A stretch of 20,000 nt of DNA from Atractiella rhizophila. Taxonomy: Eukaryota. The DNA lies in assembly GCA_021432655.1 (NCBI GenBank), contig MU271388.1, positions 55,938 through 75,937 of the forward strand, read 5' to 3'. Made by a program: the position numbers and the translations under genes. Positions 1 to 20,000 of the stretch are shown here, piece after piece (positions within the stretch are counted from its first letter, which is position 1; the number at the start of each line of letters is the position of its first letter). The notes beneath the pieces are model-generated. The model had not been told where the DNA came from. It saw only the letters and a program-made list of their open reading frames with translations, and did no database searches.

Positions 1-2282
1 ATCCAAATTCTTCAATGCAAAGGTCCGCTCTGCGGCTGAACTATCGTAGGAGAAAGAGGCACGGTGAAGCCTCATCGTCTCGCCGTCTGTGGTGACAATA
101 TCTGTCTCGATCTCATCTTCGTTAAGGAACTCTTCGACCCTTGTGACAGAGGCCCAAGCTGCGCATCCATTTTTCCTCAACAAGAATTGAGACGAACACG
201 AAAAAGGGCTCACTACCGATCATGTCCATGACCCCTTGCGCGATATTAAAGAGCGGTCCATTGAGTGTTTGAAAGATCGAGAGTGCAGTAAACGCAATAG
301 GGATTCTGGGATATTTCTCCTCAGATAACTGCTTTCATGAGATGGGAGAGAAGATGTCACGTCAAGTCTCTTTTTGCAAGCATCGTGAAAACCCAGAATC
401 CGGTGACCGTCATGCCAGGAACTGTGAGATTCCTATTTGTCCGTCAGCAACGTCAAAAAGCCACGACGTTAAGGTGTTCTAACGCACGAAGCAAACTCAA
501 GCCCGACGTCCACTAGGGCTTTGAGAATCAAGACGTGCATCTCCTCGTTTCTTGCCTGCTCGGGCTAAGGGATAAGTTTCCGCTTTAGATAGACAGTTGA
601 GGGAAGGGGCTGACAAACCGCTACCACTTTGCTCATAAATTCCGCTTCCCAAGAGAACCACTTCAAAGCCCTCACATTGCTGATCATCTCTTCAGTTCTC
701 GACATCCTCAGATCCTTAATTTCATTCCCTTGTTTGACCAACTGTTCCATCCCATGCCTTCAGTATCAACAAGTAGCAAATCGAAGCAAAGCCACACCGA
801 TAGGTTAGGGAAAGTTACATACTTTGGAATAAAAGTGTGCAAGGACGCGGGTGAGGAGGAAGGAGATGGGGAGGAAGATCACCCCAACGAAACCGGACCA
901 TCCCATAAGTCTGCCCACCAGCTTCATATGAGCAAGTATCCTTCGACATCATCGCTTTGACTTACTGATACAAAAAGACCACTCCTATACCAAGCTCTAC
1001 CGGCGTCCCAGCCATCGCAACTAGGACATTGATCATTCCCACCACAGTCTATCCACGTCCAGCACGGAACCACACGGCACATACTCAGCCTTATCCTTGT
1101 GAGTTCCACTAAGGAGCAAGGCGTACCTCTGTGTCTGATGACAAAATATTGATCGTCTTTCCCGCGTCCGCCCACTTCTTCTCCTTCACTTCCTCCTCTC
1201 CTCCTCGAACCGCGGGTCTTCTCAACGATTTTTCGAACACGTCTTTTGAGAGTGTTCTCTTAATCCTTATGATGGTTGTCCTGGTCGAGAGAAGGCTATG
1301 GAAGTATGTCTGAGCTTTTAACAGGTTCAGGACGAGCATCCAGATCGCGTCCTGGAGGGCAACGGAACGGGAACCGGTGGGAGATGTTAGTTGAAGGAGG
1401 ATACGATTGAGGAAGAACGGTTGTGCATATCCTGTGCGTCCCAACACCCAACCATGAAGTTGCATAACGTTCGTCAGTACCAAAAGAGGTAAGCGTTACA
1501 TAAAGTTGGAACTGCAGAGAAGAGACTGGCGCACCAAGAACAGCGTGCGCGATCGCGACGAGCAGACAGATGACGAAGTCCTTCGTATTCGCCTCTGCAA
1601 GAATCTTCCACAACCTCAACCGTCCTCCCTTCCGTTCCTCCAACTTCCTTCGTTCCGCCAAATCCTCCGTCGCATCCATCCGCCTCAGAGTTGCGGAAAG
1701 AGGATAGATATCCTCAACATCCAAACGTCCCTTTTTCTTTGCGAGAGTGAACAGAGGTGTCATCCATCCCGATGTGCAGTATTCCCACACCGACGCGCCA
1801 TCCTCCGGAGAGGAAGGCTCTGGGGAGATTGGACGAAGAGATGAAAGACAACCGAGTGAGAGAAGAGAGAATAGGATGGAGAGTCTGCTGACGGCAGGTG
1901 GGTAGAAATCGGTGAGGGCGAAGAAGGAAAGGGCGTTGACGAGGAGGGAAAAGATGATAGGGAAGGGAAGAGTCTGTGTTGAATGTTGAATAGTTAGGCA
2001 GACGAAAGTGAACAAGTAAAAGAGAGCATGAAGTAGCTCATCCAATGGGAAGTTGCTGAGTTCAACACCGTTTTGGCCAAAGGCATAGCACCAGTAGAAA
2101 GCAGGAAGGAGTAGCGAAAGATGCAGCAGGATCCTCGTCCATCGTGCGAGGACATAATGCGGGGAACTGGCTTTGTTGTAACGCAGGTCAAACGTCGTCG
2201 CGCGTAAGAAGAGATGGGATGCGAGTTGGATGAGGCTGAAAAGTAAGAAAACAAAGAGTGGAAGGCCAGCGATTGCGACCAA
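1..2282 (-). CDS. ABCC/MRP-family ABC transporter, 5' part (N-terminal TM region, linker, TMD1, start of NBD1); multi-exon, continues beyond the left edge
   Basis: Hydrophobic N-terminal helices are followed by the ABCC linker motif 'SPEDGASVWEYCTSGWMTPL..AKKKGRLDVEDIYPL'. Later exons give 'RMSRTEEMISNVRALKWFSWE', 'IAFTALSIFQTLNGPLF' and 'SVTRVEEFLNEDE...ASFSYD...FALKNLD', which leads into NBD1. GT-AG introns are present (e.g. 1534-1432). There is no in-frame ATG before the stop at 2369-2367, so the start probably lies in a small upstream exon (about 2370-2421) that I could not resolve. Confidence 0.9.
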
Positions 2283-4508
2283 GAAATAAACGCCATCTTT
2301 ACTTTGCTGGATCCGCGCCGCTGTCTTTTTGCAACAGCGGTTTGGTATGCATCCACTTCTTATGTCTCAGTACTTCCGAGTTTAAACTCGAGTCAGCGCT
2401 CGCGTTCAGTAAAACGAACATGGAAAGGTAAACGATAAAATCTCCTTTCAAATTATGGCACATTCAGGATATTACAATATCATGTGCGGATGCCTGAGTA
2501 TGCGTCCATAGTACTGTAACTCTGTCAGTAGCTATTCGATCCAATATTTATTTTGCGGAGCCATTTGAAATACGGGTTGGCGATGCCACTGGCCACAATT
2601 CGACCACTTCAAATATTTCGCAAGATGAAGTGGGGCTGTCTACCCTCTCTGTCTCACTTTGCTCTGCACCCTTTCAGTAGCCTGCGACGACTTCAGTGCT
2701 TTATTATGTACAGGGGACTTTGAACAGTTATTAGGCGAGGAAAGTGTCGAGGAACACATCTTGAAACTGACTTCTTTACTATGATATGTACGTTTCACAT
2801 TATTTGATCATACCGGCTGGCCGTCAATTCAGGCTCCTGCTCCTCTCATGTGATCATCCCATTCCGTTCTGTCAAATACAATGATTGTGTGTCAGTGTGG
2901 ACCAAAGGAAGGGAAGGGGTTGGCCGCTTGGTTATACTATTCTCGCACACCCTGAAGCTCTATCCTTGATTGAAGACTGACCAAGGGCCGAGGGATTGAC
3001 TGTCTTTTGTCGTAAGAAGCACAGATTAGTCAACTGATGATACAATGTGACTATTTTCCCAAACTTCTGATATGCTGTTGGACCCTTTGCCTACTGCTCG
3101 AACTTATTCAAATCCGTCGCCATCAGCTCGCATAACGGCCTTTACAACAAGTTAAAGTGAGAAATCCGCCTCCCTGTGAACATGGATCGATCATGTGTTT
3201 GAACGCCATTCCGATGATTTTCTCCGTCCTACAACTATTTGTAAAAAGGCGATTTAAGACTTTTATTTCTCTGAGCAGTCCTCTCTCGCATTAAACTTCA
3301 ACTTCTCAATTAGCTGTTCTAATTCTCATCCTATATCGCTAACTTGCTCCTGATGATAACTCGACGGAGAATCCGGATCGTGAACCTATTTATTTGCTAC
3401 CAATTTCAAAAAGGTCTTGCTTGCTGCTGCAATCCAACCCAAGACGAGCTCGCACAGGATGACGGTATTCGCGACCGCTCCACTGTCTTCCCCGCAACGA
3501 TTAAGGGTGCTGGTAAAAAGCATGCCCAGATACCGTTGTCTGTGCGAATGAACGCACTGAAATAGAATCAAAACTATTCGTTGCCAACTTGGAGAGCTAC
3601 TAGACACAAGAAACCATGGAAATTGGATATATGTACCTCTTCACTTTACGTTCGAATCCCTTGTCCAGCTAGCACCTTTCGAGTATGTGATACCCGTGAG
3701 CTTCAGAGTATCTTGAAGAAACGCGAACACTGAGTCTTTTCGCTCGAAAGGACACCTAAACCAACTCTTGATAACCCGCTTGCTCAATACGCGGGCCAAA
3801 CCGTCCCTCACTTTTGCTGTCTGTCCGCAAATCAGAAGACACAGACACAAAGTGGGCAACATTTGGCAGCGTAAGTCGAACAAGAAAAGGAGGAAAGTAG
3901 ACCACATGTGCAGCAAAGAAAGCTCAAAAAAATAATGAAGACCACGCCTATATATAAGAACCAAGTACTGCTTTGTGCTCGTAGATTGGGAACTATTGGA
4001 CTGTGCGAGCCTTAAAAACATTGCATTGAAGAACCCTTTCAGGTAAGACTCCTGGTTCGATCCCAAATGGTGTAGAGTTACGCAATGATGTTTCGGTGGC
4101 TGTGGCGGCGACATGGATACGGATAACTAAGTGGGAAGGCTGGCTGCATAGTCGTTTAAAAAGGCAGTATCTTCAGCGCCATCTAAAGTCGACGTGTCGA
4201 CCAGGTTTCCAGGACTGATGACCCAGCGGATCACGATGGTCACACAGGCAAACCGAAAACGTTGTGGAAGCTGGTGGAAGAGTTCCACAATATCTGGAAT
4301 ATCATGCCGCGTGCTTCTCCGGAGCTCTGGAAGGAGAAACAGATGCCCGACACCCATTTGGAGCTTGCTGTCACTCTTTGTGAAGGCGAAGAAGCTCGAG
4401 AGAAAGGGAAAGAACACTTCGTACCTCCGGACGACTCCTCCCTCGTTCCGAATCGTTTGTGGAACACTATGGCGTGGCCGCTCCTTCCCAGTATAGCTGC
4501 CTTACGGC

Positions 4509-4515
4509 TATAAAA
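4509..4515 (+). promoter_or_regulatory. Candidate TATA box
   Basis: TATAAAA about 100 nt upstream of the ATG at 4612. Confidence 0.35.
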
Positions 4516-4611
4516 GGGGAGGGTAAAAGCTTTCAAGTGCCACTTTTGTATTCATTGGCTCATCGATTCTCAAGCTGACAGATACTACTTCTGCTCGCGT
4601 TGCTAGGCAGA

Positions 4612-7284
4612 ATGGGAAATTTCGATGGATCTCACAATGACACTCCCGAACCAATCAGCTGCGAAATCGTTCTCCACAACAAGACGCCTTTCGTGCTTAA
4701 ATGGGTTAGTGCTGGTGAAGAGGGACCGCAAGGGTCTCAACAGATGGTCCGGGAACGATCAACATCCCGTTTCGAAGGGAGAGATGAGAGCTGGCGGCAA
4801 CGAGTCGCGGATTCGTACATTGACTCGTGAGTCTGACCTCCTCTTTCATTCTCACCATCAGCGCAGACATTTATTCTGCTTTCTCAGATAATCGCCTCGG
4901 GTTGCGAAACTGGATTTTCTACAAACTTGAAGGAGGTCCATCGGGTTCGGTCAAGTTTGAATTCAGGATCAATCTTTGGCGTAAGAATGGCGAACCGACT
5001 GCGAATGCAACAACAAGTATCGTTCCGAAGTTCAATGAGGACAACAGCAACTTCCGATTCAGGATTGACGACGAACAGTTGTCTGATGGAAATCGTCATG
5101 TATATCGTACGTTTGCACTCCTCTTACGGACGTATTCATCGCTGATTGGTTTGGACGGAATGCTTAGGCGATGTCCACCTCGAAGTTCAGAACCTCCCCC
5201 CTTCGCCTTCCTTGCGATCCATCTCAGTAGCCGCTTTCTGTCCCGTTTTTGTCACCGCGAACCGCTCTCGCTCCTGCTCTTTCGATCAAGAGCGACTTGT
5301 CCTCTGGTCCAAAGGGGCGAACCAAGATGTGGTCCCTGCGGCGGTGTCGCTCTCTCATGCCAATCTTCAACTTCAAATTGACGATGTGTGGTCCACTTCC
5401 TCTGTCACTTGGACAATCCTTGGCCAATTTCGACCAGCATCCGAGTCGAAGATGCAGTTTCCTAACTTTTCTGCAGGAGTTGGAGAGTCCATTCTCTCCT
5501 GCAGTATTCCAAAATTGTTAAACAATCTGCCGTTCGGATTCAAGGGTTTCATCGATTGGGAGATCAAGTCTTCGGGAGACCTGCCAATTACTCGAGCGAC
5601 CACAGCCATAGAAATCTACATTTTGTCTCCGCATCTTCCCAAGTTCATTCTTGATGGCGTGCCCGCTTTACTCCTCCAATTCCTTGTCCTTCCGATAGAC
5701 CGATCTTTCAAGGATGAATCTCAGACTTGGGTTGATCACGTCGTCAATTTCTTTCGCCCTCAGGATGGAAAGTCCACTCAAATCTTTCAGTACGAGTCGA
5801 ATGGCGGAATGAGCAACTATACGGGGTGGCCAGGTCCTTCAGGGAAGGCCGACATTGCTGATCAAGTGAGTGTTTGCGTTTTTAGAATACTCTGGTTGAT
5901 CTGATAGCTGCAAAGGTATCTACTAGCTGTTACATCGAACACTTCCTCCAGCACATTAAAAATCAAAAAGCGAATAGGTCACGATGGGTCAATTGCTACG
6001 ACCTCGCCGGACTTGGCCAAACCATGCTCTCTCTCGGTATGGACGAAAGTGTAGCAAAACTCCGAATGATGTACCTCTATCCCTTCGGATATATCAACAA
6101 GACGTCCCTCATAGGTGTGGACGGATGATGCAACAGTCCTTTCCCCCCAGACGGCAAGTCATTCGAGGTAGACCAGCTTGACCCCAAAGCGCTCCTCCTT
6201 CGGCAACCACGCTTTCCTCACCCTCGACCGAAACGAGCGAAATGGACCTAAAGTCGTCGATATCACCTGTGGTCCTCAGAAAGCCCAGCTCACGCTCCGA
6301 GGGTACATTGATGCAGCGATAGATCATGATGCTACGGCTAAGTTTCAGAAAGCATACGAAGCTGCTGGCCGAAAAGGACGTGCGCCAGCGGAGGACGGTC
6401 ATTTTTGGAATCTACGAGATGGACCTGGAGTAACGCGATTGGTCTCGCCTGTCGATTTCCGCTTAGATGCAAAGGGAGGGGTTGGAGTTTTGGCCGCGAT
6501 TGAGGAGGCATTGCCTGATGGAGATTTGGACGAGCTCGACATTCACTTTGATGGGGTAACCATGAACGCGAACTGGCATTTCTATCCTGCTGGTGTGAAG
6601 GACGAAGATGCTGTCCGAATCGACCTCTTTGCCATTAATGACTCTGATAAAATCTATCTCGAGTATGTCAACCGATCGAAATCTCTAGATTTGGATGGAA
6701 CGTCAGAAGAAATAGAAGCTACCTCTATCAATACTTTCGTGCGAGGAACGAAAGGGACGACTAGTGATGGACAACCATTTGCTGTTTGGTCGCATAAGAA
6801 GAGTGGCCGCCGCCTCGCCTTCCTCTTCGTACTCAAAGGGATGCCTTTGCTCGAAGAGCTGAATAAACTCATCAACCCTATCCAACAAGCAGTTGACGAT
6901 TACTATAAAGAGTCGCCGCCAGACCCCGATCTCTCCCTCAGAAATGCATCCGCTAAATCTCTCCAAATGGGCACTACTTTCTCAGTCGAGGTCATATGCC
7001 GTGTGCGTCCATTTCTCACCTAGTACATCATCGCGAGTGCTGATTCTCTTTCCTCGCACTTATAGACGGATACAGTCGTCGGCAGCAATGTTGATACGAT
7101 GCAGGGAAACGTGGTCTTCTTACATGCAGAACAAATCCATCTTCAACAAGGAACTGGCAGCAAGATGAGATATACTTTCTATGCCAGGCGAACCGGTCTC
7201 GAAAACATCATTCTCTCCTTTTACGACGCTCATCTCCAATTTCAGTCCATATCTTACTTTGTCGAAATCGTTCAACGCAAGTAA
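4612..7284 (+). pseudogene. Disrupted multidomain gene: beta-rich N-terminal domain + papain/transglutaminase-like Cys-His-Asp domain + C-terminal Ig-like beta-sandwich
   Basis: ATG at 4612. Phase-compatible introns: 4827-4887, 5107-5167, 5866-5915 and 7003-7065; stop TAA at 7282-7284. Motifs: VNCYDLAG (Cys 5994-5996), PFGYINKTSLIG, CNSPF, RSSFGNHAF (His 6208-6210), VVDITCGP (Asp 6259-6261). Lesions: in-frame TGA at 6126-6128, a +1 frameshift at about 6181-6188 (gaccccaaagcgc), and an unresolved frame change at about 4705-4777. Confidence 0.65.
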
Positions 7285-8180
7285 TTGCGCTGTTTACGAA
7301 ATATGGACATTCATCTTTCCTTGCTCTTTCTGTATGTTCTCGACCATTTAACCGATCTGTAGCGTATCACGGGTGTAAAATAAATCCTTTTCTCTCAATC
7401 TGCCAGTAGGGCGGAGGCAATTTCTGCTCTGACCGCAAATTAGTCTCAAACCGAGGAGCAGGGACAGTAATACGTTCAGCCTAGGTGGAAAAAAAGCAGG
7501 CAGAACCTTCAAATTTGGGATGGCTTGGGATGGCAGTAAATTTGACGCCTACTATATTTTGATTGAATCAAATGTAGGTTATCGTCTTTGAGCAGATTGA
7601 AGGCAGATTCGTTCTGATCTCATTCGTGCTTTGATGGATGCGCTGTTGAGAATAAGGAGGCGTCAGAGGAGGCGTGTCACCCGCTGTGTATCTACGGCAC
7701 AATGCAACTCGAGCGGCCGACTACGTAGGTAAAGTTCCAGTCCGTCAACTTGGTCGTATAAATTTCCCGAATTGCAACACACTTCTTGTTTCGGCATATC
7801 GCGGGCATATGAATATCGTATGCCTACCACGACATACCAGCTTTCATTACAATTCGAAGTGAATATTGTGTACGGTGTAGTGTTTGAGCAGAGCGCGAAA
7901 CTTCATACTACAGCGCTCGACTGACGGAAATCTCTCAAAAGCCGAAAATCACTAAAGTATGCACTGAGGCCGACGCCATTTATGGCGTGTTTGGTGGCAA
8001 GATCTTCTCTGGTGAACTGTGGACAACAACACGAGATCATTTGAATCTGACGAGTCGATCGTTGATCGTCAGTCTCGAAGGAGAAGTCAAATGCCATATC
8101 TGCGTAAAACAGTGGAGGTACAAAGTGAGGAAGTGCTTAGTTCAGTTCTTTGACCTTCAGTATCGAATTGTCTACATACA

Positions 8181-8187
8181 TATAAAA
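8181..8187 (+). promoter_or_regulatory. Candidate TATA box of the iminopeptidase gene
   Basis: TATAAAA about 55 nt upstream of the ATG at 8237, which sits in a good context (acaacaATGG). Confidence 0.55.
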
Positions 8188-8236
8188 AGGCTGGAGAGTT
8201 CATTGTCATGCTCTCGGATAACGATCCCCAACAACA

Positions 8237-9403
8237 ATGGCAGAGGAAATCAAACCCACCACTGTTGCCAAGGCGCCTTTCAAGGAATACGAGACTGCCT
8301 ATTATATTTATGGAGATCTGACCCAGACGAAGTCACCTCCTCTGATTGGTATGTCATGTTCTGTCCTCTTTTCTAACGCAACTACCGCAATTGAGCTATT
8401 TTCAGGTCTACACGGTGGCCCTGGACTTGTTCACGTACGTTGGTTCCAGCGAGGAGATGCCACTGTTTCTGACGTTTCTTAGGGCTACCTCGCAAACTTT
8501 GGAGCTCTCTTTCCGAACCGCGTCATTATCTTGTATGACCAGTTAGGGAACGGGAATTCCACTCTACTTCCGAAAGCTCCTTCCACATTCTGGACCGTGG
8601 AACTCTTTGTCGAAGAGTTGGCGAATCTGATTTCCCATCTCGGGCTCAATTCGTTCGACCTCATCGGGCATTCTTGGGGTGGCATGCTCGCAGCCGAAGC
8701 CACGATTCGTGGCGCGCTCCCCGGATTGAGAAAGCTTGTTATCTACAGCAGTTTGGCGAGAATGAGGAATTGGGATGAATCCGTCCTCAATCTGCTGGGC
8801 ACGATGGACCCTGAACTGCAAAACATATTTTACGAACACGAGAAAGCGGGAACTACAGATTCACCTGAATATCAGGTTTGTTCTATGATTACTGACAGAA
8901 GAGGCGGCGCTGCTAACATGGCTTCAGGAGGCAGTGAATACGTGGAGAGAAAAGGTTGTGGTTGGTTTCACACCGGTTCCCGGATGTATCCTCGATGTTT
9001 TTGCCCATGCGGAGAAGAATCCGCAGGTATTAGGGACAATGGTGCGTCCAATCTGCGATGTGTACAACATTAACACAACTAGTCTGACAAAATGCAAACT
9101 CAGTATGGACTTTCCGAGTTCGAGTGTAAAGGCACTTTGAAGAATTGGGACATATCTGACCAATTGCACAAGATCAATGTGCCCACTCTCAGTCTGAGAG
9201 GTCAATTTGATGAAGCTTCAGCCGAATGTCATCGACCTTTCATTGAGAACATAAAGAATGTGAAGCACGCCATCATAAAGGACGCTCAGTATGTGCTGTC
9301 TCTCATTGATCCTTCGCGAAACTGAGTGAGTGACCATAGTCATGTCGCACACCTCCAGTTTCCGGAAACGTTTGCTCAAGTTGTGCTGGAGTTCCTGTTG
9401 TAA
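8237..9403 (+). CDS. Proline iminopeptidase / L-amino-acid amidase family alpha/beta hydrolase (peptidase S33), 6 exons
   Basis: Exons 8237-8348, 8406-8434, 8483-8875, 8928-9041, 9104-9288 and 9340-9403, all with GT-AG introns in compatible phase. Motifs: LHGGPG, YDQLGNGNS, nucleophile GHSWGG, acid in 'GQFDEA', His in 'DAHHVAHL'. Confidence 0.93.
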
Positions 9404-9730
9404 TTTTTGCACAGATTGCAATGTAGTGTGATTTAATAGAGAGAGTTCAGTCGATTCATTCGCGTTCTGCGCTGCGTCGACATGAGCCACACGCCACAGT
9501 CTCAGTAAAGGCATCTCTTCGCTTGCATTCATTATTCATTCATGCAGCGCCACCGAACATATTCAGAGCAAGTCCCGCAAAGACTTAAGTCAAACCAGTC
9601 ATAGGCTGATGAACCTCAAGAGTCCGCCACAGTTCTCATTGTCCCCTTACCATCATCACTGTCAACTCGCTCAAGTAAGGTGCAGTATTACTTCCGATCT
9701 TAGGACATCTGATTTAAATTTGTCAAGCAG

Positions 9731-10237
9731 ATGTTCTACTCTGGCACATACGAAACGATACCACCCACTGCCAGTGCGGGGCTGATACTCTTGAAAGAGC
9801 TTCTCTACACGCTCGATACACTGTCTTCCAGCGTTCCCGCTTCCCTTTCAGACCTGATGCACCCAACTGCCATCTTCACCCTCAACGGCAAGGCGCAAAC
9901 AATGCCATTCCTCGAAAGTGCCAAGTCATTCTACCCCGATGGCTACAACCTTTGGTCTTTCCTTCATCACGATCTGAAGAAGGCTTGGGAGATGCAGGTG
10001 GGGGACAAGAGAATAGTGTTCTGGGAGAGTGACTGTGTCAGGATTGTGAAGAAGGACCAAGAACAGGAGAAAGTTCCCATCTCTGAATTCTCTTATATCG
10101 AACTTGAAGAGCAGAAAGACAGCAAACTTGGATGGAAAGTATCAGCGATGGCTACTTGGATGGACGCTTATCCTATGTCGGAAAAGATGAAGAAAATCAA
10201 CAAATGCAAAAGCGAAACAAGCGAGGTTCATGCCTAA
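9731..10237 (+). CDS. Hypothetical 168-aa protein, possibly SnoaL/NTF2-like fold
   Basis: Clean single-exon ORF directly preceded by a likely 5'-UTR intron (GTAAGG 9675 to CAG 9730). The pattern of helices, 'HPTAIFTLNG', beta strands 'VFWES', 'EFSYIELE' and 'WKVSAMATWMD' resembles NTF2-like proteins. The fold call is an inference. Confidence 0.65.
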   Translation: MFYSGTYETIPPTASAGLILLKELLYTLDTLSSSVPASLSDLMHPTAIFTLNGKAQTMPFLESAKSFYPDGYNLWSFLHHDLKKAWEMQVGDKRIVFWESDCVRIVKKDQEQEKVPISEFSYIELEEQKDSKLGWKVSAMATWMDAYPMSEKMKKINKCKSETSEVHA

Positions 10238-10659
10238 CGAAGTGGTCTTTTCGTGATTTAGCCAAAAATTATTAGTAACGCTCAAAAGAAGTCTCCAAAA
10301 ATTCAAGCAGTGGAGGGGATGTGAAATGGAACATGAATGTACTAGAACTCACACCATACTGTCCTTTGATATGCACCTGCCTTAGAGCTTAAGTTTTCCT
10401 CCTGTGTTCCCGTGAGTTTGGAGCTTAGGGACACTAAGGGAGACGTACAGTAGTCGAGGCTGTCACCGTGCCGCCTTCACTCGCCTGCTCGTCTCAAGGC
10501 CATGTAAGTTCCGACTTCTTCTGTAAGCCTTGTTTTTGCTACCAACTAAAAGTAACGCCCCGACGTACCACCAGTCGCTCCAGCTTTCACAGTCAGGCTT
10601 CACAGAGTGACGGGGCGGATGAAGTCGAAACTTTCTGCCATGGGGACGCTTTGTCTACA

Positions 10660-12332
10660 TGGATGTCGAGGCGGAGGCGTTCTTGGACTTGGCCTGGTCC
10701 TGTCATGCCAGAACCGACAGTCCCTCCAACCCCCTCTGACCATGAGAAGTTCGAGCATTATAAACCTTTTGTGAGTGCTCTTCCGTTATCATGGCTCAGT
10801 ATTTATGTACATTCTTCTTAGATCGACTATACGTCTTCAATCGTGGGGATTGGAAACTAGCAAATACTAGCCAGTCCAACGATGTATGGTGCTTTGCGCC
10901 AGTGTTTGGATCTGATCGTGGTAAACCCCATGTCACTCTTTACGATTTGTCATCTGAAATCGAGCAGAGTGAGGGTACCAAGGGTTACAAGGCCGACATG
11001 ACACAGGCAGAATTGTTTGGGGAATTCAAAGTCAAAAAGGGAAGCGACCTGGGAACCAGCGCTAAAGGCATCGTAGAGACAGAAAGCTTGACAGGACAGA
11101 AGACACGAAGCCAGATCATTATCTACAGCACGATGGTTCTATCGACTCAGCAACCAACTCGTGTTTTCTCGTTTTACGTGCGAGGTCACAACGCGCGATT
11201 GATCTGCCACTCAAGGACCGAGTTTCAATTTACGCGGTAAATGGAGACACTGACGAAGAACAGCCAGTCTTATTGGAAGATACGTGGCGTAATTTGGGAT
11301 ATGCTAAGGCGGAAGGAGAAATTTTCGAGCTGTTGAAAGAGAAAGGAGTACCTCACGTTCTGAAACACATCGCTCATGGTGATGTCCCTGGACTGCTGCG
11401 ACTCGCATCTACAGGGGAGAAATCTCTCCGTCACTATCGATGGTGTTGGACAAGGTCGTCCGTCCGCTGTGGGAGTTCCCATCCACGAAATGCTTGGTTC
11501 AGATCCTTCTCCGCGCTCTGGAAGGTATGTCATTATCTTTAACGCCAAAATCCGATCAATGTGGATGTGTGGAGCTCACGAGAAAGCATTCGAATCTATC
11601 AATGGCGACATTTATCCTTCATCGAGACGTATTGGAGGGCAATATCCTGTTTGACGACAGGAGAAGGGTTCCTATGTGATTGTGAGCTGGCCAAGGTGGG
11701 AAGCGACACATCTGAGGTGAACGAGCGAACTGTAAGCCGCTGAATATGTTTAATGATTGGATAAGGAACCGATGACTTTATGTCGTTGCGCCGCCTCGAC
11801 AGCATGATGGTCTATGTCCTCTTCTGGATCTTTGCCTCGTATGCCCCTAGCAGCATGACCCCCGAAGGAACGGGGAAGATTCCTCTCTACCTTGATAGAT
11901 TGCCGCTCGACGAACTTGCCGCATCAGTCGAGGCAAGAAAGGTCACAGTCGGATCGCGGAAGACTGTTGATAGCCCCAAGCTCACCACTGTGCCAGCGTT
12001 CGTGGAGCTGGAGGAAGTGATGACGGCTTTAAGACAGTCCGTTCTTGGATTGAACAGAGCAGAGACTCGTTTGATCAGGAGCGACATAAAACTACAACAA
12101 GGAACGGAGCAACTCGCAGAGGAGGAATTGGAAGCTAAAAGGTCAAATGGTAACCTACGATGGCTTTGGGCGAGTTATTGAACAGCTTCTTTGGATTGGG
12201 GAGACCAGAAGGATAAGGCTCAGGAGAACGAGGTTAGGCATCCTGGCCAGAGAAAACGAAAGAGAAAGGGTAAGGAGTTGCCATCTTGTCAAGCTTTCAA
12301 AAAAGCCAAAGAGTGAAGGTGGGGCATTGTGA
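10660..12332 (+). pseudogene. Decayed fungal-type protein kinase (FunK1 / Pkinase_fungal)
   Basis: Recognisable family blocks in different frames: 'KPHVTLY', 'GEFK', 'SQIIIYST...VFSFYVRGHNARLI', 'LEDTWR...EGEIFELLKEKGVPHV...HGDV', 'RHYR/MVLDKVVRPLWEF', 'ILHRDVLEGNILF', 'GFLCDCELAK..ERT'. Frameshifts at about 11440 and 11660, a stop at 11238-11240, KDxW Lys changed to Glu, and no GTxxFM/DDLES segments found. Boundaries are approximate. Confidence 0.8.
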
Positions 12333-13241
12333 AAGAAAGCTAATTGTCTTTTGTCATTTCCCAAGCAATTTATCATCCATGAATGCAATTTAACGTATTT
12401 GCGACATTTCGATGCCGCTCCCTGGCCCGCAACCAAGTTATTTCGCGGAAAACGAGAATTCCAAGTAGCCAGCTCACGCTCAACCACAGTCGCATGGTCA
12501 ACAGTCGGCACACGGTCGATTCCCGGCTCTAACGTGTTCGTGTTAGAATCGAGAGACCCCTGTTCGAGGACGAATTGGAAGTCATTTTGCGACACGCTTG
12601 TGTTTGTATCAAACGCGCTGGTTGAAAGGAGTAGAGTGGGGTTGCTCAGGAACTGCTAAAGAAGATTGTCTCTGTCTCTGTAGTTTTGGGAACAAAATTG
12701 TCCACAACGGCAGCGCGTCCGCTCAAATGGTTGTGCGCTTCAGTTTTGAGACATTTCCACCCAAAGCCCAGGTCAAAACGAGACCACTTTTATCGCCGAT
12801 TATAGATCACTCTTGTCTGGCAACGTCGAGACGATGCCTGTGAGAGAAATGCACTAATAAGAGTATTGTTTGATAACTACTAGTTCTCACCAATCTCATC
12901 AGTTATTTCTTCTCCAGCGTCGATTCGTAGACATCAAGCTGACTCCATTAAATGGCACAAGTTTTGACAGGGGAACAGGGAACGGGGGCAGGTCTTTTTC
13001 GTTTTCTCATCTAACATAAGCTTTGGGCGGTGTGGGATGGGTTATAACCCTCGGGGGCGATGAGTTTGCGACCTCTTCCTCCGCGCCATTCATGCGCTCG
13101 CTCTGGACGGAGCTTGGTCCTTCTCATAAGCTTCCATTTTACAGTTTCTGTACCTTCACTCCCCTCGTTCCCTTGTTCCTTCGTCACTTCTACGCATCTC
13201 GAGATTTTCAGCCCATACCTCCTTCAGGCATTCGAGAATCA

Positions 13242-16200
13242 ATGTCCCAAAGCTTCTCGCGAGATAGACCTCAGGATCCCCTCACAGAGATCAGAAAGAC
13301 CAACTCTCGTTTTCTTCGCATTCTCTCAATCGATGGCGGTGGTATCCGTGGTCTCTCAGCTCTCTACATTCTCGACGCGATCATGCAGCAGGTTCAGGCA
13401 ATTATGAATATTCCTGAAGATGTCATACTTTGCCCTTGCGATTTCTTCGATCTTATTTGTGGGAGCTCGACGGGAGGATGGATCGCGATCATGCTTGGGA
13501 GGCTCAGAATGTCGGTTCGAGAATGCATCGAAGCTTACGTGCGAATTGCAGAAGTCGTATTCGCGAATAAGAAGGCCATCCGATCACAAGATGGTTATTT
13601 TGCATATTCAGCAGAGCACCTCAAAACCGGTTTTCAGGTTCTCGATACTCTCAAACCTGGAGTATTGGATCTGCCGATGGCTGATCGTGACTGTCCTGCG
13701 ACTTTTGTCCTTTCCAGCTATTCTGCTAATGCTGCTGTCGATACTCTTATTCGCTCCTACTCCATCAAACCTCGGGAGCACCAACCACATGCAGGCCATA
13801 GCAATTTCAATATATTCGAAGCGATCCAGGCGACCTCTGCATGTCCCGGATTCTTTCCTCCGGTCATTTTCGATGCGGCAAAATATAACGAAAGTGTCAC
13901 AATGAATCCCTCAAAATTTGCTCAAGAGGAAGTGAAGAAGATTTGGGGACCGAATTGTTCAGTATCATGTTTTTTGTCACTCGGAACAGGAACCCAGCCC
14001 ACAGTTGACGCTTCAGAATCTTTAGCTGGTCTTGGTTTCTCTGAGCGGGTTCTGAGGGACTGCGGTGTAGTGTCTGTCGAAATGAAAAATTTATATCGAG
14101 GCAAGGATCCCAAGATTTATCACCGCTTTGATGCACCATTAGATAAGATTGGTTGGCACGAATGGGACAAGAAGAACGACACTGTTGGCACCACTCAAGC
14201 CTATCTCACGCAACACCCGCAGAAGGCATTCAAGGTGGCTCAGCTCATTGCTCGTAGTATGATCATGTCGTCACTGCCGCTGTTCACTGAAGCTTTTAAC
14301 AGAGCCATTCGTCTCTCCTGCAATCCCTCTTCCGGATGAAACACTTTGCTACGGTCGCGTGAGCGAAATCGGAAAAGCAGTCAACGCGATTCTAGATGAG
14401 AAGCATGTCGAAATTACTGGCACTGCAGGCATCGGAAAATCAACCATAGCACGTCGAGTTCTCCACCACCCCGAAATTCGGCTCAAATTTTCAACGTTTG
14501 CGAGCGATAATCGATATTTCTTCTCTTGCGATTCTGTGACTACTTTCAAAGAACTTTGTCATCAGCTTAGTGGTCACTTGGGACTAGCATGCGGCCCTGC
14601 TAGTCATGAACTCGGATATCTGGCGAAACGTCTGCGAGAGATCAGATGTCTTCTCATCTTGGATAACTTCGAGACTGTCAGAAATAACGACCCCGAAAAC
14701 CTTGAAGGGTTCGTGCAGGCAGTTACCTCAGACAACAACTCCGTCATTACTTTTGTGCATCGTGGCCAGCAGCCCTTCAGTGTTGAAGATTACAAGCCTG
14801 TCCATATACTTGTCCCATGCCTTGCGCCGGAACATTCCATAGCTCTCTTTCAGATACATTACATCCCACCGAGTGCCTTTCCTGAAGACGTTCGCGCACG
14901 AAAGCTCGAAACGGCCGAGACGACAATAACGAAAATAGTTCAGAAGCTCGATCACCACGCCTTTTCCATCAAGCTTTTTGCTTGCTGTGCACGCGAAAAC
15001 GAGGGAGGAACGCTCCAAGACCTATATGACGAGTGGGCTAGAATCAAGACAAAACTCTTGAAGAATGAAAAGGACAGGACAGCCATCCCTCAGGCGACAT
15101 TTGAAAGCTCCATCACCTTATCACTCAGTTCGGCCCGATTAACAGAAGCAGCACACTTCATTCTCATAATGCTTTCATTCCTTCCCTTCGGTCTCGAATT
15201 CGATGCGATTAAATCGCTTGTACGACTGCCACATTTTGAGTCAAAAGTTTCTACTCTTCTGCTCCAAAGCGGCTTAGTTGAGAAGGAAGCCCCACGAGAG
15301 GAAGAAAATTATCCAGAAGGGCTGAAGGCAATCCATATGCTTGCACCAATCCGGGATTTCATATGTGCAAACTTTTCTTTACCTGGATATCCCGCCGATC
15401 TAACGAAAATCTGTTGCACATATTTTAACAACGATACTTGCTACCAATCCGCTTCTGAACTACCAGACTTGTTTTTTTATACGCTGACGACTAGCCAACT
15501 TCGCCTATATCAGGGCATCCTCTGTCATAATCCCTCTTGGGCATTATATCGACAACAGGCCATTATGAGCTTGACCCTCTTGCGATACGAGCGACATAAT
15601 GCCCGAAAACGAAGTAGCAACAAAATTGACACGAAGGACGAGTTGCTGAAGGAATTCTCAAAACTGGAGTCTGACGTCAGCGAAGCAAGGTTGGAGACTA
15701 TCCTGACCGAACAACCTGTAACAGAGGATGTCGCGAGATACGCCTTGTCAATAGGTAGTGCGCAGTTGATGACCAAGCTTTATGCCCGGGCCGAATGCAA
15801 CCTGTCGAAGGCAAAGGTTTGGTTTTCTCAGTTTTCAAACCACCAGCAGGAAGCCACTTGTGAATGGCGAATTGGGATGACATTGCTCAATCTCAAAAGC
15901 TATGCGGAAGCCGAAAGGACCTTTGAATCCTTTGAGACGATCGTGTCAAGGATTTCCGAAACAGAAATTCAACAGCGCTTTATACGACTTGCTGCCTTGG
16001 CTCAAAATCTGATGATCATGATGAGGGCTCAGGAAGAGTGGAGGCAGCAAAATATTTCTGGGGATGTCAGAAGTGCAGACGAGAGGGAAGTAATGGCGCA
16101 AGCTCTTAAGCGCGACTTCGTGGTTTTTAATCTGCTTGAGGAGATTCAGAGTGAAGGTGAAATTGATGTTGACTATTCCTCTGATGCAACGTACTATCAG

Positions 16201-16317
16201 GCAATGTTGCAAGATGCTCATCCGCAGGGTCAGCAGCGCCGAAAGCCCACCATTCTTTTTTTTCTTTTGCCACCTATTCTCGCTTTTTCTTGTTTCGTAT
16301 TTCTTTACATGTTCTAG
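13242..16317 (+). CDS. NLR-like protein: patatin-like phospholipase + STAND (NB-ARC-like) NTPase + TPR + C-terminal hydrophobic tail; 2 exons (13242-14256, 14303-16317), about 1009 aa
   Basis: Patatin: LSIDGGGIRG (DGGG at 13332), FDLICGSSTGG (GxSxG at 13461), ATSACPGFF, LSLGTG. The 46-nt intron 14257-14302 (GTATGA...TTAACAG) joins the two track ORFs in frame. NTPase: 'CYGRVSEI', Walker A GTAGIGKS (14419), Walker B LLILDNFE, 'HMLAPIRDF'. TPR-like helices at about 15730-15960. An alternative in-frame ATG lies at 13092. Confidence 0.9.
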
Positions 16318-16754
16318 TACCTTCTGGGATAATGTCTCTCGAGTACATAATGAATATAAACTGAAGCAAGAATTCATTCTAGCATCCTTTCTTTTCATTT
16401 GTCCAACCCTCTTCACCATATTTCCATAAGGCAGGACCTCAGTGGTCAATGGGTTGACAAGAAGTTTTCACTCCCAGGTTAAGGAGAATCGAATTCCTAC
16501 TATTATTCATTCGTGACAGAACTACTACTCTGATATTACTATTCCTACTACTATTCCTTCACGAACGGAACTGTTCTGTCAGCCAAATTTGGCTGGGGAA
16601 CAGAGTTAGGGTCAGGCGTTCCAACAAAGCCAGTTGTGAAGCTCTGACTGACAGCTAACATGACAGGGGGAACTCACCGTCGAGTCCCATTAGCTCAGAC
16701 ACGATGGCCAAATTCCTTTGTGAGGGTGGGATCAGCCCCGATGCAAACTGTGAG

Positions 16755-16856
16755 CTGGATCCCAGCAAAGTGTGAGATGGTGGAAAAAACCGCTCATGGA
16801 ACGCAAAGGAAAGGCGTACCTGGATCCCGGCAAAGTGTGAGATGGTGGAAAAACCG
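16755..16856. repeat. Direct repeat pair, about 37 bp, period 65
   Basis: CTGGATCCC(A/G)GCAAAGTGTGAGATGGTGGAAAAA(A)CCG at 16755-16792 and 16820-16856. Confidence 0.9.
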
Positions 16857-17216
16857 GCAAACTGGTCGCCCCGAGGGTTTTGCGCAGGCGGCCGTAGGCC
16901 GCGCGCTCAACAGGGTTTTGTGCTCAATTTCGGGGAGGGCTGCAAACACAAAAGTGGTCGCCATCGAATATTATGGAATGCAAAAACGTAGTAATGATTA
17001 ATGCTTCATCATGGACATAATTTAGACTGATCCAGTGTCTATGAAAAGGAATGTGTCTGTCTCTGAAGCAAAAGAAAAATAAATAAATAAAGATATGGGT
17101 ATGTTGAAACTTGAAATGTAATCGCACCTTCCGACATCAATACCCAAAGTGTTTTCCTATTAAGTCGCTTGAACACAACGTATATGATGCTGTTGTTGCC
17201 CTGTATAACATGTAAT

Positions 17217-17611
17217 AACGATGAGTGAACATTAAAAAAGCGGAGGACAAAACACACACCTCATATACATCAAAAAATGCAATTCCGCATTGCTTCGCCA
17301 TTATCTATCGTATTTTAGACGTGAGTAGCGCAAATGGGAGGCCTAAGATGTAGCTTCAACGACGTATAATGTATATTGGGAACGAGTGAACGTTAAAAAA
17401 AGCGGAGGACAAAATATGCACCTCATATCCATCAAAATATGCAATTCCACATTGCTTTGCCATTATCCATCGTATTTTAGACGTAAGTAGCGCGAATGGG
17501 AGGACTGAGATGTATCTTCAACGACGTATAATGTGTATTGAGAACGAGCGAATATTAAAAAAAGCGGAGGACAAAATACGCACCTCATATACATCAAAAA
17601 ACGCAACTCCT
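17217..17611. repeat. Tandem repeat, unit 161-162 bp, about 2.4 copies
   Basis: The anchor GAG(T/C)GAA..TTAAAAAA(A)GCGGAGGACAAAA recurs at 17223, 17384 and 17546. Copies differ mostly by transitions. Confidence 0.95.
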
Positions 17612-18206
17612 CGCTACCAAACCACGAGTTTTTGCCTAATAAACGTTAGCTCTTCCTCCAACGATCAGCATAAGTCTCTCATCGGTCTCCTCTGACACTC
17701 AAACTTGCGAAAATAACTGTTCTTTTCCTTAAATGATTATCACAACTCGTCGGTAGTTCGGTAAGACCTTTGAAGTTTGCTGTGAGGGAGGTGGTCACTT
17801 TCACTGTATGTACTTCGGTTGTTTCTTCCCGTTGGAACCTCGACATTTCTGAACACCAGCTACGTTCTTCGTTTTCCTACCCATACCACTCTTCTTATGT
17901 TTGTTGGTGTTCGCGCTACAGACACTGCTGTTGAAATACGTAACCAGGTTTCAAGGCATGGGTGACGGGTTCTGGTTGGATGCGTTACAGGGTGAGACGT
18001 TCTTATACAACCCCTTCACCTCGTATCTGCTCTTACGCCATTTCTTCAAAAAGTGCCTATAGTTCCTACCCTTTCACGGTCTACAACTAGTTAGCCACCT
18101 CTACCAGTTGTACGCTCAAAAATACCGTTACTGTACCCATCTCCTTTTCTACCTGACCCAAAACTGTTTTCTTTCCAACGTATAACTTCGTCCCTTTTCT
18201 TTCATC
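17612..18206. CDS. Hidden 3' end of a gene with a C-x2-C-x14-H-x4-C zinc knuckle (readable only as the un-reversed complement; minus strand after correction); possibly transposon-encoded
   Basis: Complement read left to right: exon 17612-17695 (DGLVLKNGLFAIEKEVASRIQRVARGD), intron 17696-17751 (GTGAGT...TACTAAT...CAG), exon 17752-18206 (SIKPFWKLQTTLPPP...KTCGRCKKQKDGYGEKNTNNHKRDVCDD...HIEAGKRK*). No internal stops. Confidence 0.8.
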
Positions 18207-18395
18207 ACCAAGTGAATCACTCATCAGTCTACGTTTACTATAGAAACACTAAAAGTCAGACCCTGTTTATTACATGATCGGAGGTGAAAACTTTAAAAAT
18301 ATTTCTAGTGCAGTTTGATAAGATTTCGTTTCCGTTTAAAACTCGAAAATAGACTAGTTAATGTCGACGTCAACGTTCTCCTGACTTACGTGACA

Positions 18396-18873
18396 ACGCC
18401 TCAGTCTGTTACATTTATATTACACTCAACTACGAGACGAAACAATTATAGGGGAGTTACGATTATTAGAAATATGTAGCACTATCGATCGAGAGTCCGG
18501 AGCGTAAGCTACATGAGTGCGGACTCTATGCTACCTATTACCGCTTCATTATACCTTAGTATACAAACTGTATATATCCCACACATAAAAAAGGAAGCGA
18601 AAAAAACTACAAACGAGTGAGAATAATGCGTAATATGCAGCATTATAGATTGGGGGTTCGGGTAGCGAGGAGCGGGAGTGCAGATTTTATGTTACCTATT
18701 ATCGCTTCGTTACTCCTTAACGCAAAAACTACAAATACTTCACGCACAAAGCAGGAGGCGAAAAAATTACAAGCGAGCAAGAGTTATATGTAATATGCAG
18801 CAACTTCGATGTAGAATCCGGAGGGTAAACGCGATGAGTGCAGATTTTATGCTACCTATTACCGCTTCGTTAT
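18396..18873. repeat. Mirror-image continuation of the 161-bp tandem array, about 3 copies, running into the gap
   Basis: The anchor GAGTGC.GA.T.TATG.TACCTATTA recurs at 18515, 18676 and 18836 (periods 161 and 160). It is the base-order reversal of the 17217-17611 unit. The leftmost copy is degenerate. Confidence 0.92.
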
Positions 18874-19041
18874 NNNNNNNNNNNNNNNNNNNNNNNNNNN
18901 NNNNNNNNNNNNNNNNNNNNNNNNNNNNNNNNNNNNNNNNNNNNNNNNNNNNNNNNNNNNNNNNNNNNNNNNNNNNNNNNNNNNNNNNNNNNNNNNNNNN
19001 NNNNNNNNNNNNNNNNNNNNNNNNNNNNNNNNNNNNNNNNN
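18874..19041. other. Assembly gap (168 N)
   Basis: Run of N. Confidence 1.
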
Positions 19042-19137
19042 GTCGTCGATTTTACACCTGGATGACCGGCGATTTGCGAATCGTGCAGGTCTTGCAAAAT
19101 CGAGCGGCGAATTTCTGTCAGGTTTGCATCTTACGCA

Positions 19138-19263
19138 AATCGGCGCCCGTTCGCCGGATTGCGTCTCCTATCGCCCATTTGCGCTCCCTGCGAATCGGCG
19201 CCCGTTCGCCACTGCGTCTCCCGTCGCCTATTTGCACGCAGTGCAAATCGGCGCCCGTTCGCC
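19138..19263. repeat. Three copies of AATCGGCGCCCGTTCGCC (period about 52-56) in the putative U3
   Basis: Copies at about 19138, 19194 and 19246. Confidence 0.85.
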
Positions 19264-19461
19264 CGTTCGCCCATTTGCGCCTACATCACCACTTAGCCCA
19301 ATTGTGCCTATCCTCCTCTTATTAACTCCGCGTAATCCCACTGTCACTTCCCCTTCTAGTCCTCTCACATGTTTCATCTGCTCTCCTCTACGCTCTGTGG
19401 CAGTGTTATTCCGCTTGTATATATAGATCAGAGAGTAGTGGAGGTGACCTCAGAGTATTCT

Positions 19462-19530
19462 CTTAGGTTTATCTCCACTACAGGTTAGTCTTCATGTCAT
19501 ATCATGCACTTAGGTTTATCTCCACTACAG
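19462..19530. repeat. Perfect 22-bp direct repeat inside the putative LTR
   Basis: CTTAGGTTTATCTCCACTACAG at 19462-19483 and 19509-19530. Confidence 0.9.
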
Positions 19531-19616
19531 ACGCATCGCCTATCGGCGACCGCACATAGTGTCAGCCCTAACAGAAGAATACTCTCTTTACCTTTCAAAA
19601 CAGCGAAACTTAAAAA

Positions 19617-20000
19617 ATGTCGGAAGTTTGGGGAGATATGGAAACGCGCGAATCGCCGACGAGCGAAGAACGCATCCATCGTTTAGAAAGGATGTTCCAA
19701 TCTCTACACCTCACAACCGAAAAGCAGTTCAAAAAAATCGAACAAGATCTCGTAGCAAGTTTCAACCAACAAAACGCGCAAACCTCCCAAAATGCGCACG
19801 AAATTGCGCAACTGAGGTCCGACGTCCAGAACACAAACGACCGAATTTTACAATTGCTGGACTCCAGACTGCCTCCTCCTAGAGACAGTGGGACCACCTC
19901 CCCCTTTTTGTCGCGAACAGACCCAATACCCCAAACTTACTCTCCTCCCTCTATACCTCAAAATGCACAAGTTTCGCCTTATGCAGGAATCAGACTTGCC
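19617..20000 (+). CDS. Gag-like ORF, 5' partial view (128 codons, open at the right edge; absent from the ORF track)
   Basis: MSEVWGDMETRESPTSEERIHRLERMFQSL...EIAQLRSDVQNTNDRILQLLDSRLPPPRD...PPSIPQNAQVSPYAGIRLA: a coiled-coil followed by a Pro-rich linker, the layout typical of Gypsy Gag N-termini. It starts 44 nt after the putative LTR end. Confidence 0.6.
   Translation, partial: MSEVWGDMETRESPTSEERIHRLERMFQSLHLTTEKQFKKIEQDLVASFNQQNAQTSQNAHEIAQLRSDVQNTNDRILQLLDSRLPPPRDSGTTSPFLSRTDPIPQTYSPPSIPQNAQVSPYAGIRLA

What the first reader, a model, noticed from the sequence alone, without database searches (positions are those of the whole stretch)
17217..18873. A 1.26-kb segment of reversed polarity: a true mirror repeat, not an inverted repeat
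Seen: two apparently different arrays share a period of about 161 bp. Reading 18872 to 18752 backwards WITHOUT complementing gives ATTGCTTCGCCATTATCCATCGTATTTTAGACGTGAGTAGCGCAAATGGGAGGCCTAAGATGTAGCTTCAACGACG..., which matches 17289-17410 apart from 4 transitions and 1 indel. Flipping 17612-18873 in place gives ...CAACTCCT|TATTGCTTCGCC, in register with the unit's CAATTCCGCATTGCTTCGCC. Established: replication, recombination and transposition produce reverse complements, not base-order reversals. Inference: the segment ends exactly at an N-gap, so this is most likely a gap-filling or contig-extension bug. If raw reads did contain it, it would imply an unknown way of copying DNA, which I consider very unlikely.
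Basis: partly seen in the sequence, partly recalled or inferred. Interest (0 to 1): 0.85.

Follow-up and report, generated by a model that had tools for sequence, protein, structure and literature searches.

The report
Gap-edge DNA block written backwards
A 1,262-base stretch next to an assembly gap is written back to front without being complemented, which is almost certainly a software or editing error in the assembly and not a feature of the organism's DNA.

Summary
Window 17612-18873 (block B), read backwards without complementing, matches the 162-bp tandem array at 17223-17611 (blastn E 3.5e-88). As written, B matches nothing else in the window on either strand.

Flipping exactly 17612-18873 in place joins the two arrays without a gap. 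The 100 nt across the junction align 93/100 to the unit, and every 1-nt shift of the boundary costs one gap column. TRF then reports one array of 4.9 copies. The block ends at the first N of a 168-N gap.

The 828-nt non-repeat part of B also shows reversed k-mer polarity, z about -6 against 21 control chunks. Fungal RIP mutation could mimic that signal.

Two loose ends of read-derived contigs match B only when it is read backwards.

Verdict: an assembly or gap-extension artefact, confidence about 0.95. It is not a biological mirror repeat. The real locus is probably a 5-unit array followed by about 830 nt of other sequence. Biological interest is low. The practical value is as a flag for checking this assembly.

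The parts
16485..17222 (.). Flank belonging to a repeated family, upstream of the array
   Evidence: Summed word depth of many short contigs is 400 to 16000 here, against 128 (X1) and 93.5 (X2) on the single-copy flank 15088-16484 (table 2). The tool warns that this is not a copy number. The dinucleotide ratios are normal for this window (TA/AT 0.71).
17223..17611 (+). 162-bp tandem array in correct polarity, 2.4 units, cut in mid-unit at 17611
   Evidence: TRF period 162, 2.4 copies, 88% matches, score 629. Families D2, D3 and D5. Covered by contigs of 3 of 3 runs. The polarity score favours the as-written order, +4.7 to +12.2 nats.
17612..18873 (.). Block B: 1262 bases written in reversed base order without complement; the unit of the error
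   Evidence: Mirror blastn hits to the array at 17223-17611 with E down to 3.5e-88, and none as written. The junction is gapless only when exactly this block is flipped. The sliding polarity score is negative from about 17500 to the gap.
17612..18439 (.). Non-repeat part of B. After flipping it would lie distal to the array and next to the gap
   Evidence: No similarity to the rest of the window under any of 4 base exchanges on either strand. Polarity log-likelihood ratio is -19.9 to -28.1 nats against +18 to +23 in 21 of 21 controls. Read backwards it holds a 152-aa stop-free frame. That is weak evidence: 38 of 2000 shuffles reach 152 aa. The codon score of 0.081 is above 13 of 13 decoys.
18440..18873 (.). 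Array part of B: about 2.7 units of the same 162-bp repeat when read backwards; it abuts the gap as written
   Evidence: Mirror hits. D1 copies at 18434-18552, 18595-18713 and 18755-18873. After flipping, TRF reports one array at 17223-18014, 4.9 copies, score 940.
18874..19041 (.). Run of 168 N (scaffold gap) that bounds the reversed block
   Evidence: Regular-expression scan for N runs; sequence read.

Best explanation
This is a data-handling artefact. The contig that ends at 17611 sits inside a repeated 162-bp array. It was extended by 1262 bases into a scaffold gap, and the extension string was written back to front. This is what happens when one of the two steps of reverse-complementing is left out, or when bases collected outward from a contig end are attached without re-reversal. 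The remaining gap was left as 168 N. The real DNA most likely reads as follows: 17223-17611, then 18873 down to 17612. That gives an array of about 5 units followed by about 830 nt of other sequence, and then the unsequenced gap. Shown here: the mirror relation, the exact boundaries, the phase continuity and the compositional polarity flip. Inferred: that software or an editor did this, and at which step.
For: (1) The mirror match is far beyond chance and is unique in the window: E 3.5e-88, 1.4e-61 and 2.6e-58, with no hit as written on either strand, and no other mirror hit in 20 kb.
(2) The boundaries are exact. Flipping 17612-18873 gives a 100-nt junction that aligns 93/100 to the unit with 0 gap columns, and each 1-nt shift of the left boundary adds one gap column. 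TRF on the flipped sequence gives a single array at 17223-18014, 4.9 copies, score 940, against 629 as written. A phase match by chance is about 1 in 162 (my estimate).
(3) The right boundary is the first N of a 168-N gap.
(4) The whole block behaves as reversed text, not only its repeat part. Markov models of order 1 to 4, trained on the rest of the window, favour the as-written order in 21 of 21 control chunks (mean +18 to +23 nats). They favour the reversed order for 17612-18439 (-19.9 to -28.1, z -5.1 to -6.1). The sliding score changes sign near 17500-17700 and turns positive again across the gap.
(5) There is positive evidence from public reads. I tested 4 of the 18 listed loose-end consensus strings of contigs that leave the array (table 7). 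The X2 string at 17325 aligns 23/27 to B read backwards (18672..18646). The X1 string at 17370 aligns 19/22 (18629..18608). Their scores of 19 and 16 compare with 8 to 14 for anything as written. The spacing is also right: 45 nt apart on the array, 43 nt apart in B.
(6) Established knowledge: templated DNA synthesis, recombination and transposition yield reverse complements. Reversed, non-complemented genomic DNA is used as a homology-free decoy (Dfam paper PMC3531169, passages read).
Against: No raw reads could be laid, and the flipped version could not be tested against reads, so direct proof is missing. The polarity signal of the non-repeat part rests mainly on TA/AT (1.55 against 0.35-0.86 in controls) and (CA+TG)/(AC+GT) (0.70 against 1.00-1.57). 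These are the classical indices of fungal repeat-induced point mutation (recalled), so a RIP-mutated sequence in correct order could give the same sign. The ratio that RIP does not affect, (GA+TC)/(AG+CT), does not discriminate: 0.98 as written and 1.02 reversed. Of the 4 loose ends tested, 1 scored the same on B read backwards as on the as-written window (16 against 16), and 1 did not favour the mirror (9 against 14 as written). The long frame in reversed B is only weakly significant, and 2 of 13 reversed control chunks have frames of 162 and 171 aa. The responsible program is unknown, and I found no published description of such a bug.
Confidence: 0.95

Rival explanations
1. The block was complemented in place instead of reversed in place. 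On this reading the real + strand at 17612-18873 is the complement of what is written, and the locus holds a true inverted copy of the array 828 nt downstream of the first array.
For: As double-stranded objects the reversed and the complemented string are the same, so the blastn hits cannot tell the two apart.
Against: Only reversal in place explains why the last base before the gap continues the unit exactly where 17611 stops: 0 gap columns at this boundary and 1 to 4 at shifted ones, and one TRF array across the junction. Under complement-in-place this phase match would be a coincidence of about 1 in 162 (my estimate).
Confidence: 0.03
2. The error arose in colour-space (two-base-encoded) data. 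A colour string is unchanged by complementing, and the reverse strand is its simple reversal. One orientation slip, or a wrong seed base at decoding, can therefore emit the complement of the intended strand. This is a sub-mechanism of the artefact, not an alternative to it.
For: It rests only on recalled knowledge of the two-base code. The transformation seen is the A<>T, C<>G exchange combined with strand reversal, which is one of the four decodings such a slip can give. The other two exchanges give no hit.
Against: Nothing in the window indicates colour-space data. There are no downstream switches to the other base exchanges, as single colour errors would cause. A plain string-handling slip explains the same facts.
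Confidence: 0.05
3. The organism's DNA really contains a 1.26-kb segment of mirrored base order, made by an unknown copying process.
For: Nothing positive. It is not formally excluded, because only contigs, not raw reads, were laid, and the tool states that a hole in contig cover proves nothing.
Against: No known polymerase or recombinase produces base-order reversal (established knowledge). The segment ends exactly at an N run. It behaves as a flipped continuation of its neighbour, not as a copy of it: the phase is continuous, and 828 nt have no counterpart in the window. Read-derived contigs carry a B-type unit variant in the forward polarity.
Confidence: 0.01
4. The mirror similarity is chance or a low-complexity effect between two unrelated arrays of similar period.
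For: Some repeats resemble their own reversal because of low complexity (Dfam paper PMC3531169, passage read).
Against: The first 121 nt are 96% identical, with all four bases in complex order. E values reach 1e-88 with the dust filter off, and no other mirror hit occurs in 20 kb.
Confidence: 0

Closest known systems
Reverse-without-complement (or complement-without-reverse) errors in sequence handling. Such strings are used on purpose as decoys, for example in Dfam (PMC3531169, passages read)
   Same: The string operation is identical. The result keeps base composition but loses all homology on both strands, as seen for B as written.
   Different: Here the operation was applied by accident to a single block inside a deposited scaffold, bounded by a contig end and a gap. 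I found no paper that describes such a bug in a gap filler or scaffolder.
'Swinger DNA' of rule A<>T + C<>G, reported by H. Seligmann in database records, for example the 16S rDNA of a stonefly mitogenome (PMC4942731, passages read; the primary papers were not seen)
   Same: It is the same transformation with a sharp switch to normal sequence. That paper notes that DNA cases are known only for this one exchange rule, which is the rule a handling slip would produce.
   Different: Those reports interpret the pattern as unusual polymerisation. Here the block ends at an N gap and continues its neighbour in phase when flipped, which points to data handling. Nothing here supports a biological origin.
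Mirror repeats that form H-DNA (triplex) (PMC9171763, abstract seen in the listing)
   Same: Both have mirror symmetry of base order on one strand.
   Different: H-DNA motifs are short polypurine-polypyrimidine tracts. This block is 1262 nt of mixed sequence (GC 0.40-0.42; skews). Its mirror partner is 434 nt long and lies 828 nt away as written.
Ordinary satellite-like tandem array inside a repeated element
   Same: After flipping, the locus is simply an array of 4.9 units of 162 bp in a region of high word depth.
   Different: None, once the order is corrected.

Membership tests
Inverted repeat (reverse complement) | One arm matches the reverse complement of the other | tested here: not met
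   B as written gave no blastn hit on either strand to the rest of the window. None of the 3 inverted pairs in 16000-20000 links the two arrays.
H-DNA-type mirror repeat | Polypurine-polypyrimidine tract with mirror symmetry about a short spacer | tested here: not met
   The sequence is a mix of all four bases: GC 0.40-0.42, with small GC and AT skews over 17501-18500. The mirror partners are 434 nt long and separated by 828 nt.
Assembly artefact at a gap edge | The anomalous block is bounded by an assembly feature (contig end or N run) | tested here: met
   The block ends at 18873 and the Ns start at 18874. The left boundary is exact to the base.
Assembly artefact at a gap edge | Undoing the suspected operation restores a normal, continuous sequence | tested here: met
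   The flipped junction aligns 93/100 with no gap. TRF reports one array of 4.9 copies, score 940. The polarity score would become positive, like the 21 of 21 controls.
Assembly artefact at a gap edge | Reads do not support the sequence as written and do support the corrected one | tested here: inconclusive
   Only Logan contigs could be laid, and only on the as-written sequence. Partial positive support: 2 of the 4 loose ends tested match B read backwards better than anything as written.
Tandem repeat array (162-bp unit) | Head-to-tail copies in one phase | tested here: met
   As written: 2.4 copies. After flipping: 4.9 copies at 17223-18014.
'Swinger' A<>T + C<>G DNA as a biological product | The transformed sequence is present in the organism's DNA, not only in the record | not testable with these tools
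   This needs raw reads or PCR. The string transformation itself is present.

The most novel reading that the evidence does not exclude
The source organism's DNA truly carries a 1.26-kb stretch whose base order mirrors the natural continuation of the neighbouring array. That would imply a copying process that reverses polarity without complementing.
Probability: 0.01. Interest if true: 0.97.

Novelty: not a real feature. Interest (0 to 1): 0.1.

Why it matters
Biologically it does not matter: the real locus is an ordinary tandem array in a repeat-rich region. It does matter for data quality. A block written backwards is invisible to homology searches on both strands, creates false 'orphan' sequence, and can hide a real gene or repeat. 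The same bug probably struck other gap edges of this assembly, and perhaps other assemblies made with the same pipeline. Two simple screens used here could be run over whole assemblies. One is a mirror self-blast of gap-adjacent sequence. The other is a forward-versus-reversed k-mer likelihood. The case is also a caution against reading 'complement-only' sequences in databases as exotic biology.

Tried and rejected
1. Contig cover. I laid the Logan contigs of 3 runs (X1 and X2 are one sample; X3 is another organism label) on 15088-18873 at 90% or higher likeness. X1 and X2 had depth in 20 of 20 bins up to 17627, and X3 in 18 of those 20. All 3 runs had zero depth in all 10 bins from 17628 to 18873. 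The tool states that a part without cover in contigs proves nothing, so I record this here and not as evidence.
2. No whole genome is held for the window, so other gap edges could not be screened.
3. Natural copies from elsewhere. A metagenome scan with two 13-mers of the unit found 0 stretches. A scan with the neighbouring NTPase protein gave 97 pattern matches, none confirmed as a relative.
4. Long frame in reversed B. It is 152 aa against 77 aa as written, but 38 of 2000 shuffles reach 152 aa and 2 of 13 reversed control chunks reach 162 and 171 aa. tblastn of the four reversed frames of 80 aa or more against the window gave no hit better than E 0.16. The codon score of 0.081 is above 13 of 13 decoys and within the 0.016-0.128 range of 7 real long frames. 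This is weak support only. The frame could not be sent to protein databases because it is not a sequence of the window.
5. ARAGORN found no gene in 17000-18873, either as written or flipped. Across the whole window there were no Rfam matches and no tRNAs.
6. The other two base exchanges (A<>C with G<>T, and A<>G with C<>T) gave no hit for B or for the right flank 19042-20000.
7. Earlier notes of this scan held nothing on this genome or on look-alike sequences. The 8 hits for 'mirror reversed polarity' concern unrelated gene-order topics.
8. Literature searches for a described bug found nothing on target.
9. The frame right of the gap (19614-20000) had no relative among longer proteins.

Full report
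WHAT WAS CHECKED

The window holds a 162-bp tandem array at 17223-17610, 2.4 copies, 88% matches (TRF; the repeat finder families D2, D3 and D5). A second array lies at 18434-18873 with spacings of 161 and 160 (family D1). A run of 168 N follows at 18874-19041. I call 17612-18873 block B.

As written, B has no blastn hit to the rest of the window on either strand. Reversed without complementing, it hits the first array three ways:
- 313 columns at 83.4%, E 3.5e-88
- 342 columns at 75.7%, E 1.4e-61
- 161 columns at 90.7%, E 2.6e-58

A mirror scan of the whole 20 kb found only these matches.

THE UNIT OF REVERSAL

The mirror-matching part of B (18440-18873) lies at the far end of the block, next to the gap, and 828 nt away from the first array. 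If the whole of 17612-18873 is flipped in place, that end comes to lie next to 17611.

The 100 nt across the new junction then align to the repeat unit at 93/100 with no gap column. Moving the left boundary by 1 to 4 nt in either direction costs 1 to 4 gap columns. TRF on the flipped sequence reports one array at 17223-18014, period 162, 4.9 copies, score 940. As written the score is 629.

So the block that was reversed runs exactly from a break in mid-unit to the last base before the Ns. A phase match by chance is about 1 in 162 (my estimate). This also separates 'reversed in place' from 'complemented in place', which the blast hits alone cannot do.

AN INDEPENDENT LOOK AT THE NON-REPEAT PART

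The 828 nt at 17612-18439 resemble nothing else in the window. I therefore asked whether they read like this genome forwards or backwards.

Strand-symmetric Markov models of order 1 to 4 were trained on the window without 17203-19041. They prefer the as-written order in 21 of 21 control chunks of 828 nt, with mean +18.2 to +23.3 nats and a minimum of +5.6. They prefer the reversed order for 17612-18439, at -19.9 to -28.1 nats, z -5.1 to -6.1. A sliding 400-nt score turns negative for windows starting from 17501 and positive again once the windows reach across the gap. Elsewhere only two short stretches dip slightly below zero: 10201-10800 (down to -5.5) and 19201-19700 (down to -1.6).

One caveat applies. 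The signal comes mostly from two ratios:
- TA/AT is 1.55, against 0.35-0.86 in the controls.
- (CA+TG)/(AC+GT) is 0.70, against 1.00-1.57 in the controls.

These are the classical indices of fungal repeat-induced point mutation (recalled). A RIP-mutated sequence in correct order could therefore look the same. The ratio that RIP leaves alone, (GA+TC)/(AG+CT), does not discriminate (0.98 as written, 1.02 reversed). Against RIP, the first array and the repeated flank 16485-17222 show normal ratios (TA/AT 0.76 and 0.71), and the GC content of the 828 nt is 0.42, not strongly lowered. I treat the composition test as supporting evidence and the geometry as the main proof.

PUBLIC READS

Three runs hold the left flank, with word shares of 0.93, 0.89 and 0.68. 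All three are kept as Logan contigs, and X1 and X2 come from one sample.

Laid on 15088-18873 as written, single-copy contigs cover 15088 to about 16610 without a difference. Many short, deep contigs then cover the repeat region up to the bin 17501-17627. Nothing lies on 17628-18873 in any run.

The positive finding comes from contigs that leave the first array with loose ends. I tested 4 of the 18 listed loose-end consensus strings:
- The X2 string at 17325 aligns 23/27 to B read backwards (18672..18646), score 19, against 8 to 14 for as-written sequence on either strand.
- The X1 string at 17370 aligns 19/22 (18629..18608), score 16, against 8 to 14 elsewhere.
- These two sites lie 45 nt apart on the array, and their matches lie 43 nt apart in B.
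- The third string scored the same on B read backwards as on the as-written window (16 against 16).
- The fourth did not favour the mirror (9 against 14).

So a unit variant that B shows only in mirror form exists in forward polarity in real read-derived contigs.

WEAKER LEADS

Read backwards, B has a 152-aa stop-free frame, against 77 aa as written. However, 38 of 2000 dinucleotide shuffles reach 152 aa, and 2 of 13 reversed control chunks reach 162 and 171 aa. Its codon-usage score of 0.081 per codon exceeds 13 of 13 decoy frames and falls among 7 real long frames at 0.016-0.128. The frame could not be searched in protein libraries because it is not a sequence of the window. ARAGORN, Rfam and tRNA scans found nothing. 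Two metagenome scans for natural copies were empty. No genome is held for the window.

WHAT IT IS

The simplest account of all results is a handling error. The contig ending at 17611 was extended 1262 bases into a scaffold gap. The extension was then attached in reversed base order, with one of the two steps of reverse-complementing omitted, or with outward-collected bases not turned round. The remainder of the gap was kept as 168 N.

Templated synthesis, recombination and transposition all give reverse complements (established knowledge). Reversed, non-complemented DNA is so free of homology that Dfam uses it as a decoy (PMC3531169, passages read). A colour-space decoding slip could give the same transformation (recalled knowledge), but nothing here points to it. 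I could not name the program, and four literature searches found no description of such a bug.

COMPARISON WITH KNOWN THINGS

- It is not an inverted repeat.
- It is not an H-DNA-type mirror repeat, which is a short polypurine-polypyrimidine tract (PMC9171763, abstract seen in the listing). This block is mixed sequence.
- The same string transformation has been reported in database records as 'swinger DNA' of rule A<>T + C<>G and read as unusual polymerisation (PMC4942731, passages read). That paper notes that DNA cases follow only this one rule, which is the rule a handling slip would produce. The present case, bounded by an N gap, argues for the mundane reading.

SURROUNDINGS

The window looks like a eukaryotic microbe, most likely a fungus (inference). 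A patatin domain lies at 13020-14339 and a STAND NTPase (AAA_22, NB-ARC, NACHT) at 14263-16317. This architecture is known from fungal NLR-like genes (recalled). The contig sets of the matching runs total 40 to 52 million letters. The array sits in a region of very high summed word depth.

VERDICT

Confidence in the artefact reading is about 0.95. Biological interest is low. The practical value is as an error flag for this assembly and as a simple screen for other assemblies.

Noticed in passing
window 13020-16317 (+): A patatin-like phospholipase domain (13020-14339, E 4.3e-15) is followed by a STAND NTPase (14263-16317; AAA_22 at E 2.2e-09; NB-ARC and NACHT just below their cut-offs) in two overlapping frames. 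It looks like one NLR-type gene with an intron or a frameshift near 14263-14339.
   Followed up: partly
window 16485-17627: Summed word depth of short contigs is hundreds to 25000, against 128 on the single-copy flank. In both X1 and X2, one contig joins 16564 to 17509 on opposite strands. This suggests that other copies of this repeat family exist in other arrangements (tables 2 and 5).
   Followed up: no
window 19135-19263: A 53-bp tandem repeat of 2.4 copies, GC-rich, lies just right of the gap. A 34-nt direct repeat lies at 19450 and 19497.
   Followed up: no
window 19614-20000 (+): An open frame of 129 aa runs off the window end and looks like a coiled coil. It has no Pfam family above cut-off and no relative among longer proteins.
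   Followed up: partly
window 8483-9073 (+): An alpha/beta-hydrolase fold fragment (Abhydrolase_1, E 2.4e-08) in a 196-aa frame, probably one exon of a larger gene.
   Followed up: no
window 10201-10800: Outside B and 19201-19700, this is the only stretch where the forward-versus-reversed polarity score dips below zero (-2.3 to -5.5 in 400-nt windows). I take it as noise. It has no mirror hit.
   Followed up: partly
window 16755-16858: Two copies of a 39-nt direct repeat, 65 nt apart and 92% alike, lie upstream of the array.
   Followed up: no
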